From positions 1-64,000 of the forward strand of contig JAYUEN010000398.1 in assembly GCA_043739185.1 (NCBI GenBank): 64,000 nucleotides of DNA, given 5' to 3'. A program made the position numbers. This document shows, piece after piece, positions 33,001-39,000 of the stretch. This DNA comes from Bdellovibrionales bacterium. Its GTDB lineage: Bacteria > Bdellovibrionota > Bdellovibrionia > Bdellovibrionales > JAMPXM01. Position 1 is the first letter of the stretch. Every line of letters starts with the position of its first letter.

Positions 33001-36000
33001 GACACCTCGGTGATACGGTTTATGTTCACAGTGCGAATATGAATCAGACTCGTCGCTTACTTGGTTTCTAATCAGTCCGTTGCTTATTGGTTTAAAGCCA
33101 ATAAATTTGAATCAAAAACTTAATAAATTTAGATAAATTTTCAGGAGAAGATGTATGGCAAGAGTAAAAGGTGGCGTTACAGGCCGCAGACGACGTAAAA
33201 AGGTAATGGACCGAGCAGAAGGTTACTACTCATCTGGTAGTCGCTGCTTCATTCATGCAAAAGAAAAAAATGACCGTGGAATGGTATTTAGCTACCGCGA
33301 TCGCAAAGTCCGCAAGCGTGCATTCAGAACTTTGTGGATCACCCGTATCAATGCTGCAGCAAGAATCAATGGTACCAGCTATTCAACATTTATGAATTCC
33401 CTCGAAAAGGCCTCGTTGAATCTCGATCGTAAAGTTTTGGCTGATATGGCCGTAAACGATGCGACAGGCTTCGCAGCTTTAGTAGCGCGTGTGGTTCCAG
33501 GCCGAGTAGTTGCATAATATTTTAAAAGCAGAATTTTTTTTCAAATAAAATAAAAAGGCTCACCGATAGGTTGAGCCTTTCTTTTAGGTCGGTACTCAAA
33601 ACCGGCCTGGCAGAGTGAACAATGACCAAGGGCGACTCTTTTCAAGAATTTGAACAACGAAAAGGTGATCATATTCGCTTGGCATTGTCGCAAAGCTCGC
33701 AAACCGAGAGTCTTTCCGGAATCGATCGCATTCGTCTCAAACACGAAGCATTTCCAGAAATGAATTTTGCGGATATCGATGTTTCTTGTGAACTCTTTGG
33801 TAAGAAGTTGCGATCACCTTTTTTTGTAAGCTCGATGACCGCTGGTCACGCGGGTTCTCTCAAGCTCAATCATCGCTTTGCCAAAGCCTGTAGTGAAAAA
33901 TCTTGGATCATGGGAGTGGGTTCCCAGAGAAGAGAGCTCTTTGATGAAAATGCCGGTCAGGAATGGCAGCAAATTCGCGCCGAATTTCCGGATTTGATTT
34001 TACTTAGTAATATTGGCCTGTCCCAACTAATTAAAACACCATTAGAAAAAATTCAAAAACTCATTAGCTCTTTAAAGGCTCAGGCCTTGATTGTTCATAC
34101 CAATCCGCTCCAGGAAGCACTTCAGCCGGAGGGAACCCCTGAATTTGAGCATGGATTAAAAGCTCTAAAAAATTCACTTCAATTCCTTTCAGTTCCTGTC
34201 ATAGTTAAAGAAACGGGTTGTGGCTTTTCAAAAGCTAGTCTTGAAAAGCTCAATGATATCGGAGTGCCTATAGTAGATTTGAGCGGATTGGGGGGAACCC
34301 ATTGGGGTCGAATTGAAGGCTTGAGATCAAAACCCATAGAAAAACTTCACAAGGCTTCGAAGGTTTTTGCTGATTGGGGCATTTCAACTGTAGAATCCTT
34401 ACTTAATGCTCGGTCAATTGGTCCTAAGTTTCAGATCTGGGCATCAGGTGGAGTGAGATCGGGTCTTGATGCTGCAAAATTTATTGCAATGGGCGCTTCG
34501 ATGGTGGGAATAGCAAAACCAATCTTGGCGGCGGCACTAGAGTCAGAAGAAGAATTGCTTTCAACGATGGAGCAATTTGAGTTTGAATTGCAGCTTGCAA
34601 TGTTCTGTTGTGGTGCCAAAAGCATCAAGCAGTTACAGGAGAATCAGGTATGGGAAAAGATTTAAATCCAGATTTGTTTCAAGGCTTTTCAAAGCTGACC
34701 CGAGATCAGCGTTTTGACCGTTTGGTTGCCATGGGAGCTTTAAATCGCGAAGACGTAAAATTTCTCAGCCGTGGTGGCATAAAGGATTTCAGTCTAGCAG
34801 AAAATTTCATTGAAAATGTCATTGGCTATTTTCAGATGCCGCTCGGAGTGGCGACCAATTTCTGTATCGACGGCCAGGAAATATTAATTCCGATGGCAGT
34901 TGAAGAGACCTCAATCATTGCGGCAGCAAGTAAGACCGCCAAGTGGGTGCGTGAATTTGGCGAGATTACAACTAAATCGTTGGGCCAACTCATCATTGGG
35001 CAAATTCAAATTTCAAAAGTTAAAAATTTTGATTTTTTAAATACCCAAATTCAACTTCATAAAAGCAATTTAATTCATGAAGCCAATCGCCAGGTTTCAA
35101 AGAGTATGGTCGAGCGTGGTGGCGGCGTTCGAGATATTGAAGTCAGAAGGCTCGACCGTGGAGATGGCCATGAAATGGCGATCTTGCATGTCTTAGCCGA
35201 CCCCTGTGATGCCATGGGTGCCAATGTGATAAATCAAATTTGTGAGTTTTTAAAAGCTCCGATTGAAGAACTCACTGGCGAAAATGTTACCATGTGCATA
35301 CTTTCAAATCTCGTAGACACCAAACTCACCCAAGCTCAGGTGAAATTGCGCGGAATTGATCCGGATCTTGCACTGCGAATTTGTGAAGCTTCGCTTTTTG
35401 CTCAGCAAGATCCTTATCGTGCAGCGACCAATAATAAGGGCGTTTTGAATGGCATTGATCCGATCTTGATTGCGACCGGAAATGACTGGCGCGCAGTTGA
35501 AGCCGGAGTTCACGCCTACGCTGCCAGATCAGGTCAATATCGCTCAATTACTAAATGGCAGTATATCAATGAAGAGCTAGTGGGAACCCTGGTCGCGCCC
35601 ATCGTGGCGGGTACAGTCGGCGGTGTTACTAAACTTCATCCTACGGCACAAATTTGTCTGAATATGCTTGCTGTCGAAAATGCATCTCATCTTTCACGAG
35701 TGATGGCGGCCGTCGGCCTCGTGCAGAATTTAGGCGCCCTAAAGGCCCTCACCACAGTGGGAATTATTGAAGGGCATATGAAGCTTCATATAAAAAATCT
35801 CAGTCTTGGCGCGGGCGCATCTGCTGATGAAATGTCCTATGTACAAACTAAACTTGAAGAGATTTTGAAATTGAAAAAGCGTATATCTTTACACAATGCA
35901 GTCGAAGTTTTGACTGAGCTTCGTGCGCGAAATGCAATCCACAGTTAATTCACAGTCTGAAAAGACCTTGCTTGCCGAGCTTTCGGTTCCATCAAAGAGT

Positions 36001-39000
36001 TTTTTGATGGGAGAATATCTCATTCTCTTTGGTGGCCCGGCTTTGGTGATTGCGACCACCCCAAGATTTAAATTAAAAGTATTTGAGTCTAAAAAATCCT
36101 TTCATCCTTTTCATCCAAAATCGCCGGCAGGCTTGCTGCTTAAGGAACAAAATTTAAAAAATATCTTTTTTGAATTTAGTGATCCTTATTTTGGCTCAGG
36201 CGGTATGGGCGCATCTTCGGCGCAGTTTGTTTTGATTCATTCCTACCTCAATTTGAAAAAGGATATGAGCTGGCAAGCATTGTATAAGAGTTATCGGGCT
36301 CAAAGCTCAGGAGTCGAGAATTGGCGGAGACCAAGTGGCGGAGATGTCATTGCTCAGTTTATGGGGGGCATTAGCTCTTTTCATCCGCGGCTGAACAGTC
36401 TTGAAAACTTAAGTTGGAGTTTTTCAGATCTTGAATTTTCACTTTTTAAAACCTCACAAAAACTTGCAACCCACCTTCACTTAAATGAAGAGCGAGATTT
36501 TCAAAAGGATTTGCAAAAGCCCGAGCGCCTTAGCGAAGTCAGTGCTTTGGTTGAGCAGGCCAGCGCCGCACTTAAAGCTTGCAATAGTGATTCTTTTATT
36601 GAGGCCTTTGCTGCATTTTCAAAAATACTAGAGAGTTTAAAATTGGTGGCAGTTCCCACTCAGAAAATATTGAAGGCCTTGAGAATGCATTCTGAGGTTT
36701 TGGCGTCGAAGGGTTGCGGAGCAATGGGCGTTGATGTGATTTGTGTTTTACATCGGCCAGAACATAAGTCCTTGATTTTGGCGGAGGCTACGAACTTGGG
36801 GCTTAAGTTTCTGGCCAATCACAAACAGCTCGATTCTGCAGGCTTTCGAATTGATTCAGAAGCTTCGCTGAGGGTATAACAAAATCAAATGAAACAAAAA
36901 ATAGGTGATCAAAAAATATGGCGTGCAAGTGCTCCTTCAAATATTGCGCTCATAAAGTATATGGGCAAAGTTGACAGCCTTGGCAATCACCCCAGCAATT
37001 CGTCTTTGTCCTATACACTTGATCACCTGCAGAGCTATGTCGAATTGAAACTCGTTAATCTGACTCAAGATGTGGATTCATGGCGGCCTTTAGAAGTTGA
37101 GGACCTTAGTAAGTTTGAGGATGCCCTGAGCCCCAGTTTTACCAAGCCAAATTTAAATGCTCAAGCGCAAACGCGTTTTCTAAAGCATCTTAAATTTGTA
37201 AAAGATAGTTTTCAGTTTCAAGGAAGTTTTGAAGTGCGCTCTGCCAATGGATTTCCGGCCGATTGTGGCCTGGCAAGTTCGGCCTCAAGTTTTGCCGCAT
37301 TGACTCTTTGTGCGAGCCAGGCTTTAACCGAGTTGACCGGTCGAAAATCTTTCTCTCGGCTCGAAATTTCAGAGATGTCACGTCATGGCTCGGGCTCATC
37401 TTGTCGCTCGCTATTTTCTCCGTGGGCAATTTGGAATTTCGAAGGTGCAAGTCCAGTTGACCTTGGCATTAAAAAATTGATTCATCAGGTAGTCGTAGTC
37501 GATAGCGCAAAGAAAAAGGTTTCGAGCAGTGAAGCGCATAAGCGAGTGACAACCAGTCCACTATTTTTAAATCGACGCGAGCGTGCGGAGCTAAGATTAA
37601 AAGAATTGATGACTTCTTTACGCGCAAACAATTGGGCCGCGAGTTACCAGATCATGTGGTCTGAGTTTTGGGATATGCAGGCTTTGTTTGAAACTTCTAA
37701 ACCGAGCTTTGGCTATTTGAGTGCGGACTCCGTACAGGTCTTGAGATGGCTGCAGCTAAATACTTGGGAACATCTCGGAGATGGTCCCCTCATCACTATG
37801 GATGCTGGTCCCAACGTTCATCTTTTGTACCGCGAAGATCAAAGGGAGATGGCAGAAATGGTTCAGCGTGAGCTCACTCCAATGATGAATGTCCTTTCGA
37901 GCTATGACTTTGAATCCTACCTTCGCCATTCAATAAAGAGTTCAAAATGAGCTTTCAAAATATGTCAGCACAAGCTTTCGGAAAGTGGATTCTCTCGGGA
38001 GAACATACCGTCATTCGCGGCGGTCCGGCGCTTGTGTTTCCGGTTTTTGCAAAATCACTTTCGCTGAAATATATCGCCGATCAAGCGCCCGCAAGTTGTC
38101 AATTCTTAGGTCAAAGCGGAAATGAATTTAAACTTTTGTTTTGGGGTGTGATGCAAAGAGGTTTGGAGCTGGCTCATAAATCTGGTACCGAACTCAAGGG
38201 AAGATTTGAGTTCGATAGTTCAGTCCCTGTCGGGGCCGGTTTGGGGGCTTCGGCGACTTTGTGTGTTACTGTTGCCAAATGGTTTCTCGCTCAAGAATTA
38301 ATTCGAGAGTCTGACGTATACGAATTTGCCCGTCAGCTTGAAAATTTATTTCATGGCGAAAGTAGTGGCGTCGATATTGCCGTTGCACTGTCAGGAAAGG
38401 CTTTGCATTTTGAGCGTGAAGGTAAATGTTATGATTTTCAACCTGCTTGGCAGCCCATTTGGTATATTTCACATACCGGGAAAAATGGGATTACTTCTGA
38501 ATGCGTAAGAAAGGTAAAACAACTTCAGGATCAGTTCCCAAGCTTAGCTCAAGAAATTGATTTGGATATGAAATCCGCCACGGCTAAGGCAGAGAAAGCA
38601 CTCGGCACTAAAACTGAAAATTCTTTAGCTGAATTGAGTATGGCGGTAGAATTGGCTCAGTCCTGTTTTCATAGGTGGGGACTTGCAGATGGTGACGTGG
38701 CAAAGCATATGGCAGCTCTCAAAGCTGCTGGAGCGCTTGCCGTAAAGCCAACTGGATCAGGTGATGGAGGTTATGTTTTGAGCCTCTGGAAGAGCTCGCC
38801 GAACGAAGCACTCAAAGAAATTCAAAACTTCTCATTGATCCCGCTTTTCAAGCAATAATTTTTTTCCTACTCCAGTCCTACTCCAGTCCTACTCAATGGG
38901 GAGGCGCCTTAGCTGCGTCTCGTCTAAGGCTTTCAATTTGATTTTCATTTTGGATGTGCTAGCGTTTTGCGAGCCTAAAAGAGGCTTATCTTGAGGGGGA

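What a model noticed while it worked through the whole genome (the two positions that open the first line are those of the whole stretch)
33622..38858. Mevalonate pathway with no HMG-CoA synthase: HMG-CoA probably drawn from leucine breakdown
The only route to isoprenoid precursors is a mevalonate operon (type-2 IPP isomerase g03844, class-II HMG-CoA reductase g03845, divergent GHMP-like kinase g03846, diphosphomevalonate decarboxylase g03847, mevalonate kinase g03848). The MEP pathway is absent and so is HMG-CoA synthase. The one place where the genome makes HMG-CoA is the leucine-catabolic cluster C386:13167-18379 (methylcrotonyl-CoA carboxylase g03510/11/13, enoyl-CoA hydratase g03512, HMG-CoA lyase g03509), so isoprenoids are predicted to be built from (prey) leucine, not acetyl-CoA. 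The same gap holds for most of the order.
Evidence so far: Names of g03844-8; relatives of g03846 are called mevalonate kinase by JGI. Six-frame HMM searches of the genome: PF01154, PF08540 and TIGR01835 (HMG-CoA synthase) no hit; no Swiss-Prot HMGS hit; IspG PF04551 and IspH PF02401 no hit. Leucine cluster: MCC beta 65.8% to M. tuberculosis AccD1, lyase 45% to bovine HMGCL; isovaleryl-CoA dehydrogenase g00887. PF01154 over cut-off in 4 of 100 other Bdellovibrionales genomes, while HMG-CoA_red is in at least 326 and MVD-like_N in 324 of 383.
(Added by a program. Inside this text positions count along the whole contig: contig position 1 is position 1 of the stretch shown here. "Call 12" and the like, gene names such as g00115 and contig names such as C1 are that model's own, and its searches are not shown. 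The text may have been shortened before it was handed on; [...] marks where a part breaks off. The agent that wrote the report below was given it as the finding of a first reader that could run no searches.)

Follow-up and report, generated by a model that had tools for sequence, protein, structure and literature searches.

The report
Mevalonate pathway fed by leucine breakdown
This predator-lineage bacterium, like nearly all its relatives, makes isoprenoid building blocks by the mevalonate route but lacks the enzyme that normally starts that route, so it most likely starts from HMG-CoA produced while breaking down leucine.

Summary
Window 33622-38858 holds a five-gene operon: type-2 IPP isomerase, class II HMG-CoA reductase (HMGR), a GHMP-fold kinase (probable phosphomevalonate kinase), diphosphomevalonate decarboxylase and mevalonate kinase. 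The genome (97.65% complete) shows no HMG-CoA synthase (HMGS) and no IspH or DXR. It has one leucine cluster on another contig: HMG-CoA lyase, BCCP, biotin carboxylase, hydratase, methylcrotonyl-CoA carboxylase beta (MCC-beta).

The gap is wider than reported. In the order, 2 of 251 genomes have a convincing HMGS, 249 have HMGR and 249 have MCC-beta. In the phylum, 1 of 301 has HMGS.

New support:
- In one reduced family of the phylum, HMGR lies head-to-head with MCC-beta and the hydratase, and no HMG-CoA lyase was found in either genome.
- In published B. bacteriovorus Tn-seq tables, all five mevalonate genes, isovaleryl-CoA dehydrogenase, the cluster's biotin carboxylase and its hydratase gave no fitness value, while the lyase tolerated insertions.

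Against: MCC-beta and BCCP did carry insertions there. No labelling data exist, and a non-homologous synthase cannot be excluded.

The leucine shunt is known from trypanosomatids. An obligate, lineage-wide version would be a new variant. Earlier notes of this scan describe leucine-fed mevalonate operons in Bacteroidota; I did not check them.

The parts
33622..34665 (+). Type-2 (FMN-dependent) isopentenyl-diphosphate isomerase, first gene of the operon
   Evidence: TIGR02151 346.9 bits (cut-off 281.3) and PF01070 83 bits. It starts 105 bp after rplT, which ends at 33517.
34608..35948 (+). Class II HMG-CoA reductase. The listed TTG start overlaps the isomerase by 58 bp, so the true start may lie further downstream.
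   Evidence: PF00368 309.3 bits and TIGR00532 329.5 bits (cut-off 259.95). The best solved relative is Pseudomonas mevalonii HMGR 1qax at 335 bits. The stretches EE(T/P)S, NKG, GNDWRAVEAG and GHM are conserved in that alignment; which residues are catalytic is recalled, not tested.
35923..36879 (+). Divergent GHMP-fold kinase, inferred to be phosphomevalonate kinase. The start is uncertain: the database copy is 290 aa.
   Evidence: No Pfam or NCBIfam match over cut-off. 70 homologues were found, some named mevalonate kinase family, and two are fused to a Nudix domain. The three GHMP motifs are invariant in a 40-sequence alignment. A profile search of solved structures hits 3k17 Lin0012 best (E 2.5e-8), then mevalonate kinases. 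The AlphaFold model has pLDDT 92.1; Foldseek matches MK 4hac (E 1e-16, TM 0.7) and PMK 1k47 (TM 0.70). The PMK role is inferred from the fold, the position in the operon and the presence of a separate MK.
36889..37950 (+). Diphosphomevalonate decarboxylase
   Evidence: PF22700 104.6 bits and PF18376 39.2 bits; TIGR01240 147.1 bits, below its 171.35 cut-off.
37947..38858 (+). Mevalonate kinase, last gene of the operon
   Evidence: PF00288 43.9 bits; TIGR00549 132.4 bits over the full model length, below its 163.05 cut-off.

Best explanation
The operon is the organism's only route to IPP and DMAPP, and it begins at HMG-CoA rather than acetyl-CoA.

HMG-CoA is supplied by the leucine catabolic enzymes. 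Leucine is converted to isovaleryl-CoA. An isovaleryl-CoA dehydrogenase (candidate on contig C83) gives 3-methylcrotonyl-CoA. Methylcrotonyl-CoA carboxylase (beta subunit, biotin carboxylase and BCCP on contig C386) gives 3-methylglutaconyl-CoA. The cluster's enoyl-CoA hydratase gives HMG-CoA.

HMG-CoA is then a branch point. [quoted passage not shown] From the established chemistry, the carboxyl added by MCC becomes C1 of mevalonate and is lost at the decarboxylase step. Each isoprene unit would therefore carry leucine carbons 2 to 6 intact. The genome has no second HMGL-like protein, hence no LeuA, so the leucine must come from outside, which for a predator means prey.

Shown here: gene content, the absences, the distribution across relatives, and gene linkage in one related family. 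Inferred: the flux itself, the hydratase's specificity, the PMK assignment and the steps before isovaleryl-CoA.
For: (1) Own genome. There is no HMGS by two Pfam models at E<=10 or by unfiltered phmmer with a relative's HMGS. There is no IspH or DXR. The thiolase-superfamily proteins are ordinary: thiolases, FabH, a type III PKS, and KS/PKS proteins.

(2) The leucine cluster is genuine.
- MCC-beta scores 756 bits to P. aeruginosa MCC-beta 3u9r, 758 to AccD1 4q0g and 749 to human MCC-beta, against 498 to geranyl-CoA carboxylase beta.
- The lyase scores 381 bits on NF004283 (cut-off 246) and 278 bits to human HMGCL, with the PRDG, HxHD and GGCPYA stretches conserved.
- An IVD candidate has isovaleryl-CoA dehydrogenases as its top five solved relatives.

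(3) Order, 251 genomes of at least 90% completeness. HMGS matched in 5 at E<=0.001, and only 2 matches are convincing. HMGR is in 249, the lyase in 248 (242 over cut-off), an MCC-beta orthologue in 249 at E<=1e-100 with mostly 70-77% identity, and IspH in 1. Genomes of 1.2-2 Mb keep MCC-beta.

(4) Phylum. HMGS matched in 1 of 301 at E<=1e-10 and IspH in 50 of 301, confined to six families. Among 60 chosen genomes, HMGR was in 0 of 30 with IspH and in 30 of 30 without it.

(5) Family f25 (G281, G287; 1.6-1.7 Mb). HMGR plus a homologue of the operon's kinase (32% identity) are transcribed divergently, 76 bp from MCC-beta, the hydratase and a 2-oxoacid:acceptor oxidoreductase. Neither genome shows an HMG-CoA lyase or any HMGL-like match (0 of 2) or an HMGS at E<=1.

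(6) Family f16 lacks a close MCC-beta. In the one genome inspected it has a lyase (284 bits), a hydratase and a PCC-like carboxyltransferase in a cluster, and no HMGS at E<=1 in 5 of 5 genomes of f16 and f17.

(7) Duncan et al. 2019 Tn-seq of B. bacteriovorus (PMC6561027; supplements S2 and S3 read by term searches plus one 53-row part). The gene orders match this genome's.
- All 5 mevalonate-operon genes have no fitness value (ND); IDI2, HMGR and MDD are listed as putative essentials with 0 insertion sites.
- The cluster's biotin carboxylase is ND and listed essential, although a separate accC exists.
- The hydratase and the isovaleryl-CoA dehydrogenase are ND, whereas 3 of 3 other acyl-CoA dehydrogenases have values.
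- The lyase tolerates insertions (W 0.40-0.54).
- No HMGS is annotated.

Against: - No labelling, enzyme assay or expression data exist for any member.
- In the same Tn-seq tables, MCC-beta (W 0.69-1.43, SD 0.22-1.27) and BCCP (W 2.5-3.9, SD 2.2-3.1) do carry insertions. Strict essentiality of MCC does not predict this, unless the insertions sit at permissive positions. Leucine dehydrogenase is dispensable (W about 2).
- ND is not proof of essentiality: the hydratase and IVD are not in the list of 201 putative essentials.
- In this genome the two clusters lie on different contigs. In closed relatives they are about 2 Mb apart, for example G121 with HMGR at 1.53 Mb and lyase/MCC at 3.50 Mb.
- The cluster has the ordinary catabolic layout with its lyase and would be expected in any leucine-eating bacterium.
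- Within the order both pathways are near-universal, so co-occurrence carries no information.
- Among genomes with IspH, 10 of 30 also keep an MCC-beta orthologue.
- The hydratase has only generic crotonase matches. No E2 was found beside the E1 alpha/beta pair.
- In f25 a dedicated MCC biotin carboxylase was not resolved, and those genomes are only 91-93% complete.
- A non-homologous synthase cannot be seen by homology searches.
Confidence: 0.67

Rival explanations
1. An unrecognised HMG-CoA synthase, either non-homologous or too divergent to detect, makes HMG-CoA from acetyl-CoA and acetoacetyl-CoA. The leucine cluster would then be purely catabolic.
For: Acetoacetyl-CoA thiolases are present (C286, C449, and a third split over C50/C198). 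Homology searches cannot see analogous enzymes. MCC-beta and BCCP insertions are tolerated in the B. bacteriovorus Tn-seq.
Against: No thiolase-superfamily protein is left unexplained. Unfiltered phmmer found nothing. No conserved gene of unknown function lies beside the operon in the window. This rival does not explain why f25 keeps MCC-beta and the hydratase next to HMGR with no lyase. It also does not explain why IVD, the cluster's biotin carboxylase and the hydratase give no fitness value in a rich-medium library. Both annotated thiolases tolerate insertions.
Confidence: 0.13
2. HMG-CoA lyase runs in reverse and condenses acetoacetate with acetyl-CoA to give HMG-CoA.
For: The lyase is near-universal in the order (248 of 251). 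It belongs to a superfamily that includes Claisen-condensing synthases (LeuA and NifV models also match it).
Against: The two f25 genomes have HMGR but no lyase or any HMGL-like match. In B. bacteriovorus the lyase tolerates insertions while HMGR does not. From general knowledge, the cleavage direction is strongly favoured.
Confidence: 0.04
3. The cells take up mevalonate, or later isoprenoid intermediates, from prey, so no internal HMG-CoA source is needed.
For: These are predators with many auxotrophies.
Against: HMGR would be useless in that case, yet it is kept in 249 of 251 genomes and has 0 insertion sites in B. bacteriovorus grown without prey on peptone-yeast extract. From general knowledge, typical Gram-negative prey use the MEP route and contain no mevalonate.
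Confidence: 0.04
4. The missing synthase is an artefact of an incomplete, fragmented MAG.
For: The assembly has 540 contigs, 97.65% completeness and 3.73% contamination.
Against: The same absence holds in 246 of 251 order genomes at E<=0.001, including more than 40 listed as single contigs. It also holds in 300 of 301 phylum genomes at E<=1e-10.
Confidence: 0.01

Closest known systems
Leucine shunt into sterols in trypanosomatids (Leishmania mexicana, Trypanosoma cruzi, T. brucei procyclics)
   Same: Leucine is degraded in five steps to HMG-CoA, which enters the mevalonate pathway. In T. brucei, leucine feeds sterols only, and IVD is needed for that route (PMC5993337, passages read). [quoted passage not shown]
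   Different: Those organisms also have HMGS and use acetyl-CoA sources alongside leucine, so leucine is one of several inputs. Here no synthase and no MEP route are found, so leucine would be the only input, and this holds across a bacterial phylum. The trypanosomatid case is proven by labelling; this one is not.
Myxococcus xanthus HMG-CoA node (leucine degradation, LiuC, AIB pathway, MvaS)
   Same: HMG-CoA links leucine metabolism and mevalonate production in a predatory bacterium. LiuC sits at the branch between isoprenoid and isovaleryl-CoA formation (PMC5389471, passages read).
   Different: Myxococcus has MvaS (HMGS), and the described flux runs from HMG-CoA towards isovaleryl-CoA. Here there is no MvaS and the proposed flux runs the other way.
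Predator signature of Pasternak et al. 2013 (mevalonate pathway enriched in predatory bacteria)
   Same: The same lineage and the same pathway. Later papers that quote it list mevalonate kinase, acetyl-CoA acetyltransferase and HMG-CoA lyase among predator genes (PMC6210107; PMC4451040; PMC4646340).
   Different: As quoted in PMC4451040, it proposed prey acetoacetyl-CoA as the starting substrate, which presupposes a synthase. I could not read the paper itself. The missing synthase and the leucine entry are not mentioned in the passages I saw.
Calditenuis ramacidaminiphagus (archaeon): branched-chain amino acids channelled into mevalonate
   Same: A genome and metaproteome reconstruction proposes leucine to HMG-CoA to mevalonate for lipid synthesis (PMC12979851, passages read).
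   Different: It is an archaeon with the alternative lower pathway (Pmd and Ipk). Loss of the synthase is not claimed in the passages read.
Leucine-fed mevalonate operons in Bacteroidota
   Same: Liu-type genes joined to a mevalonate pathway that starts at HMG-CoA, with no HMGS.
   Different: There the two modules form one operon, usually without a lyase, and some of the genomes keep a MEP pathway. Here the modules are unlinked, the lyase is present and MEP is absent. Only family f25 of this phylum shows linkage.
Classical bacterial mevalonate operons of Gram-positive cocci (mvaK1-mvaD-mvaK2, mvaS, mvaA/mvaE; recalled, not tested)
   Same: Class II HMGR, GHMP-type MK and PMK, MDD and IDI2.
   Different: Those always include mvaS. 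Here it is absent, and the PMK is too divergent for the Pfam and NCBIfam models.

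Membership tests
Classical mevalonate pathway (acetyl-CoA to IPP) | HMG-CoA synthase | tested here: not met
   PF01154 and PF08540 gave 0 matches at E<=10. Unfiltered phmmer with the HMGS of G017 gave a best E of 0.9. The thiolase-superfamily proteins are all otherwise explained.
Classical mevalonate pathway (acetyl-CoA to IPP) | HMG-CoA reductase | tested here: met
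   PF00368 309.3 bits and TIGR00532 329.5 bits (cut-off 259.95). 335 bits to 1qax, with the conserved active-site stretches present.
Classical mevalonate pathway (acetyl-CoA to IPP) | Mevalonate kinase | tested here: inconclusive
   The GHMP N-domain is over cut-off. TIGR00549 scores 132.4 bits over the full length but stays below its equivalog cut-off of 163.05. The activity was not assayed.
Classical mevalonate pathway (acetyl-CoA to IPP) | Phosphomevalonate kinase | tested here: inconclusive
   The GHMP kinase fold and motifs are shown. The best profile match among solved structures is 3k17. The substrate is inferred only from operon position and the separate MK.
Classical mevalonate pathway (acetyl-CoA to IPP) | Diphosphomevalonate decarboxylase and IPP isomerase | tested here: met
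   MDD: PF22700 104.6 bits and PF18376 39.2 bits; TIGR01240 is below its cut-off. IDI2: TIGR02151 346.9 bits, over cut-off.
MEP/DOXP pathway | IspH and DXR present | tested here: not met
   IspH gave 0 matches at E<=10. DXR gave 13.6 bits against a cut-off of 21.7. A transketolase-like protein scores only 112 bits on a DXS model whose cut-off is 395. I did not re-test IspG, IspD, IspE or IspF.
Leucine/isovalerate (liu-type) catabolic cluster | Methylcrotonyl-CoA carboxylase beta subunit, distinct from PCC and GCC | tested here: met
   756-758 bits to MCC-beta 3u9r and AccD1 4q0g, 749 to human MCC-beta, against 498 to GCC-beta 5ikl.
Leucine/isovalerate (liu-type) catabolic cluster | Biotin carboxylase and biotin carrier (MCC alpha) | tested here: met
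   Split into a 491-aa biotin carboxylase (three BC domains) and a 138-aa Biotin_lipoyl protein, lying between the hydratase and the lyase. That they partner with this carboxyltransferase is inferred from adjacency.
Leucine/isovalerate (liu-type) catabolic cluster | 3-methylglutaconyl-CoA hydratase | tested here: inconclusive
   ECH_1 146.7 bits. The best NCBIfam models are below cut-off (PRK07468 223 against 350; gamma-carboxygeranoyl-CoA hydratase 192 against 426). The best solved relative is a generic crotonase, 4kpk.
Leucine/isovalerate (liu-type) catabolic cluster | HMG-CoA lyase | tested here: met
   NF004283 381.4 bits (cut-off 246). 278 bits to human HMGCL 2cw6 with conserved metal and catalytic stretches.
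Leucine/isovalerate (liu-type) catabolic cluster | Isovaleryl-CoA dehydrogenase and the steps from leucine to isovaleryl-CoA | tested here: inconclusive
   The IVD candidate at C83:9411-10649 has IVDs as its top five solved relatives. A Leu/Phe/Val-dehydrogenase family protein lies on C257 and an E1 alpha/beta pair on C217, but no adjacent E2 was found and specificity is unknown.
Leucine shunt into the mevalonate pathway (as proven in trypanosomatids) | Incorporation of the leucine carbon skeleton into isoprenoids | not testable with these tools
   This needs isotope labelling. Only indirect support is available: the gene linkage in f25 and published Tn-seq tables.

The most novel reading that the evidence does not exclude
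A large part of a bacterial phylum of predators has no enzyme to start isoprenoid synthesis from acetyl-CoA or from sugars. It builds every isoprene unit from the intact carbon skeleton of leucine taken from prey. This would cover all families sampled that lack IspH, including the laboratory model Bdellovibrio bacteriovorus.

Under this reading, the known link between predation and the mevalonate pathway exists because a lineage rich in prey leucine needed only the module from HMGR to IPP, plugged into leucine catabolism, to replace the MEP pathway. Leucine catabolic genes would then be essential biosynthetic genes.
Probability: 0.55. Interest if true: 0.8.

Novelty: new variant of a known kind. 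Interest (0 to 1): 0.72.

Why it matters
Isoprenoids (the cell-wall lipid carrier, quinones) are essential. Textbooks give bacteria two entries to them: the MEP pathway, or acetyl-CoA through HMG-CoA synthase. Here a whole predatory lineage appears to have neither.

If leucine is the sole entry, four things follow:
- An amino-acid catabolic pathway becomes an essential biosynthetic one.
- There is a concrete reason why predatory bacteria favour the mevalonate route, replacing the earlier suggestion of prey acetoacetyl-CoA as the substrate.
- A nutritional dependency is predicted (leucine or isovalerate) that matters for axenic culture and for using Bdellovibrio as a living antibiotic.
- Metabolic models that fill the gap with a synthase would need correcting.

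The idea can be tested directly in a cultivable, genetically tractable organism.

Tried and rejected
- **Hidden synthase.** I listed every thiolase-superfamily protein of the genome and read their contexts. They are FadA with FadB, a thiolase next to an SDR, FabH, and a type III PKS with two methyltransferases. None is HMGS-like.
- **Weak HMGS matches in relatives.** The G061 protein (25.8 and 41.2 bits) sits among KS, SDR and ECH genes, so it is probably a beta-branching cassette and not a primary synthase. I did not follow G002 and G249, which are below cut-off.
- **Second HMGR on C131.** I first suspected a thiolase-HMGR fusion of the MvaE type. It is a class I-like HMGR fused to an APH/EcKL kinase, in a different cluster. 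It is not a source of HMG-CoA.
- **Co-occurrence within the order.** This is uninformative because HMGR and MCC-beta are both in 249 of 251 genomes.
- **Co-occurrence across the phylum.** A close MCC-beta orthologue (at least 59% identity) is in 20 of 30 HMGR-type and 10 of 30 IspH-type genomes, so there is no clean split. I chose the 60 genomes from the IspH listing: 30 listed positives, and the 30 lowest-numbered handles from G252 upwards that were not on the positive list.
- **Phylum HMGS search.** It used a strict E<=1e-10. It was repeated at E<=1 for only 7 of those genomes.
- **RNA evidence.** No RNA holder was listed for the operon.
- **Pasternak et al. 2013.** The paper is not held and is known to me only through three citing papers.
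- **Promoter and terminator scan of the operon.** Nothing above chance.

Full report
**What is in the window.** Five co-directional ORFs fill 33622-38858 with overlaps of 58, 26 and 4 bp and one 9-bp gap. They follow thrS, infC and rplT and precede a Met-zincin gene.

- The first gene is a type-2 IPP isomerase (TIGR02151, 346.9 bits, cut-off 281.3).
- The second is a class II HMG-CoA reductase (PF00368 309.3 bits; TIGR00532 329.5, cut-off 259.95).
- The fourth is a diphosphomevalonate decarboxylase (PF22700 104.6, PF18376 39.2).
- The fifth is a mevalonate kinase (PF00288 43.9; TIGR00549 132.4 over the full length, below its cut-off).

The reductase aligns with the Pseudomonas mevalonii enzyme 1qax at 335 bits, with the stretches around the known catalytic residues conserved (residue roles recalled).

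**The third gene.** It matches no family over cut-off and no solved structure by plain sequence search.

- It has 70 homologues. Several are named mevalonate kinase family in Legionella, and two are fused to a Nudix domain.
- A 40-sequence alignment shows the three GHMP kinase motifs as invariant columns.
- A profile of that alignment hits 3k17 (Lin0012) first (E 2.5e-8) and mevalonate kinases next.
- An AlphaFold model of pLDDT 92.1 matches mevalonate kinases and the S. pneumoniae phosphomevalonate kinase at TM about 0.7.

The GHMP fold is therefore shown. The phosphomevalonate kinase role is inferred from the fold, the position and the existence of a separate mevalonate kinase.

**Absences in the genome.** The window is contig C398 of a 4.85-Mb assembly of 540 contigs, 97.65% complete and 3.73% contaminated.

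- Both Pfam halves of HMG-CoA synthase gave no match even at E<=10, while the control genomes responded.
- I took a genuine synthase from a relative (G017: 121.7 and 116.6 bits). I ran it without filters against all 19,281 six-frame ORFs of 60 aa or more. The best E-value was 0.9.
- All thiolase-superfamily proteins are accounted for: three thiolases, FabH, a type III PKS and KS/PKS proteins.
- IspH gave nothing and DXR only 13.6 bits.
- A transketolase-like protein is far below the DXS cut-offs.

**The leucine cluster.** C386:13167-18379 encodes five proteins on one strand: HMG-CoA lyase, a biotin carrier, a biotin carboxylase, an enoyl-CoA hydratase and a carboxyltransferase. A small hotdog-like protein lies upstream.

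- The carboxyltransferase is an MCC beta subunit: 756-758 bits to 3u9r and 4q0g, against 498 to geranyl-CoA carboxylase.
- The lyase scores 381 bits (cut-off 246) and keeps the conserved stretches of human HMGCL.
- The hydratase is only generically a crotonase.
- Elsewhere there is an isovaleryl-CoA dehydrogenase candidate, two short/branched-chain acyl-CoA dehydrogenases, an E1 alpha/beta pair with no adjacent E2, and a Leu/Phe/Val-type dehydrogenase.
- The genome has only one HMGL-like match, so LeuA is absent and leucine is probably not made.

**Distribution in the order.** The same 251 genomes of at least 90% completeness were used in each search.

| Feature | Genomes with a match |
|---|---|
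| HMGS N-domain, E<=0.001 | 5 (3 over cut-off, 2 convincing) |
| HMGR | 249 |
| HMG-CoA lyase | 248 (242 over cut-off) |
| MCC-beta orthologue, E<=1e-100 | 249 (mostly 70-77% identity) |
| IspH | 1 (a 155-aa fragment, in G017) |

The third HMGS match over cut-off lies in a KS-SDR-ECH context. MCC-beta is kept in genomes of 1.2-2 Mb. More than 40 genomes are listed as single contigs, and none of these has an HMGS match. The gap is therefore real and lineage-wide. Because both modules are near-universal, co-occurrence inside the order says nothing.

**Distribution in the phylum.** In 301 genomes, HMGS matched in 1 at E<=1e-10. IspH matched in 50, all within six families. I then took 60 genomes: 30 listed IspH-positives and 30 non-positive handles outside the order. 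HMGR was in 0 of 30 and 30 of 30 respectively, so the two routes exclude each other.

A close MCC-beta orthologue was in 10 of 30 and 20 of 30, which is not a clean split. The ten HMGR-type genomes without it belong to families f16 and f17.

- They have no HMGS even at E<=1 (5 of 5 tested).
- In the one genome inspected (G252), a true HMG-CoA lyase (284 bits), a hydratase and a PCC-like carboxyltransferase form a cluster.
- This is probably another type of leucine cluster, though that is inferred.

**Linkage in family f25.** In G281, HMGR and a 32%-identical homologue of the operon's kinase are transcribed divergently. They lie 76 bp from MCC-beta, a hydratase and a 2-oxoacid:acceptor oxidoreductase (alpha subunit 556 bits, cut-off 482.75). 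G287 shows the same HMGR/MCC-beta pair on a short contig. Neither genome has any HMGL-like match or an HMGS match at E<=1.

If this is not an assembly gap (the genomes are 93% and 91% complete), the leucine pathway there ends at HMG-CoA, and the only visible consumer is the neighbouring reductase. A dedicated biotin carboxylase was not resolved there.

**Published experiment.** Duncan et al. 2019 (PMC6561027) made 90,000 transposon insertions in a host-independent B. bacteriovorus on peptone-yeast extract. I searched supplements S2 and S3 by terms and read one 53-row part of S2. The tables list both clusters in the same gene order as here.

| Gene(s) | Result in S2 / S3 |
|---|---|
| All five mevalonate-operon genes | ND; IDI2, HMGR, MDD listed as putative essentials with 0 sites |
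| Cluster's biotin carboxylase | ND and listed essential, although a separate accC exists |
| Hydratase | ND, not in the essential list |
| Isovaleryl-CoA dehydrogenase | ND, not in the essential list |
| Three other acyl-CoA dehydrogenases | Have fitness values |
| HMG-CoA lyase | W 0.40-0.54 with small SD |
| MCC-beta | W 0.69-1.43, SD up to 1.27 |
| BCCP | W 2.5-3.9, SD 2.2-3.1 |
| Leucine dehydrogenase | Dispensable, W about 2 |

In the 53 rows read, ND occurred 7 times. Five of these are the pantothenate/CoA genes and the other two are the biotin carboxylase and the hydratase. The MCC-beta, BCCP and leucine dehydrogenase results count against strict essentiality. The word 'hydroxymethylglutaryl' occurs only for the lyase and the reductase, so no synthase is annotated there.

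I did not compare that strain's sequences with this genome. The link rests on product names and gene order.

**Literature.** Searches for Bdellovibrio together with HMG-CoA synthase returned 0 papers. A search for Bdellovibrio with genome-scale metabolic modelling and isoprenoid also returned 0. A search with hydroxymethylglutaryl returned 7, none on this point. A looser search needing any two of six terms (Bdellovibrio, HMGS, mvaS, HMG-CoA, isovaleryl-CoA, methylcrotonyl-CoA) listed 25 papers, none of which holds the word Bdellovibrio.

The mevalonate pathway as a predator trait is known. The suggested substrate was prey acetoacetyl-CoA. The leucine-to-sterol route is proven in trypanosomatids, discussed in Myxococcus and proposed for an archaeon. 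These searches cover only the held open-access library.

**Verdict.** The main alternative is an unrecognised synthase.

It is a new variant of a known kind: a leucine shunt that appears obligate and lineage-wide. Earlier notes of this scan report leucine-fed mevalonate operons in Bacteroidota; I did not check them, and they are leads only.

Noticed in passing
L008:1344-3791 (G000 contig C131): A second HMG-CoA reductase, class I-like (TIGR00533 269.8 bits, below cut-off), is fused to a C-terminal APH/EcKL-type kinase domain (815 aa). It is followed by a PEP-synthase/rifamycin-phosphotransferase-like protein (884 aa), an AurF-like di-iron protein, an HAE3/MMPL-like transporter and an alpha/beta hydrolase. 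HMGR matches in frames of about 750-910 aa also occur in at least 11 other genomes of the phylum. The function is unknown. It may be a second consumer of HMG-CoA, or a reductase for another thioester.
   Followed up: partly
L019:522-8133 (G281, family f25): HMGR and the kinase homologue lie head-to-head with MCC-beta, a hydratase and a two-subunit 2-oxoacid:acceptor oxidoreductase, in a 1.7-Mb genome where no HMG-CoA lyase was found. The oxidoreductase may make isovaleryl-CoA from 2-ketoisocaproate.
   Followed up: partly
L021:1247-4525 (G252, family f16): A cluster of HMG-CoA lyase, hydratase and a carboxyltransferase of PCC/methylmalonyl-CoA-decarboxylase type, only 39% identical to this genome's MCC-beta. 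A similar 39-41% carboxyltransferase is the best hit in the IspH-type families f18 and f28; its role there was not examined.
   Followed up: partly
window 63162-63296 and beyond: A ketosynthase-like match lies inside a 2099-aa open frame at the 3' end of the window, pointing to a PKS or fatty-acid megasynthase. Four more such frames lie on other contigs.
   Followed up: no
L009:3325-6586 (G000 contig C387): A type III polyketide synthase (chalcone-synthase-like, 375 aa) is followed by a small unknown ORF and two SAM methyltransferases. This looks like an alkylresorcinol-type cluster.
   Followed up: no
L012:562-1722 and L013:3748-4905 (contigs C430, C525): Two short/branched-chain acyl-CoA dehydrogenase genes with near-identical score profiles lie on separate contigs, one of them only 3.6 kb long. 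This could be a true duplication, strain heterogeneity or part of the 3.73% contamination.
   Followed up: no
L003 (G017) and G017:C32:15601-15981: G017 is one of the only two order genomes with a convincing HMG-CoA synthase. It also carries two HMGR copies and a 155-aa IspH fragment. This suggests acquisition by transfer, or contamination of that assembly.
   Followed up: no
L002:11385-12002 (C386:18384-19001): A 205-aa hotdog-like protein (DUF4442, 23.6 bits, just under cut-off) lies directly upstream of MCC-beta. The B. bacteriovorus table has a hypothetical protein at the same position, whose insertions lower predation fitness (W 0.48-0.74).
   Followed up: no
window 38991-41522: An 843-aa protein with a Met-zincin DUF4953 domain lies directly downstream of the operon. 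It is probably a secreted protease and unrelated to the pathway.
   Followed up: no
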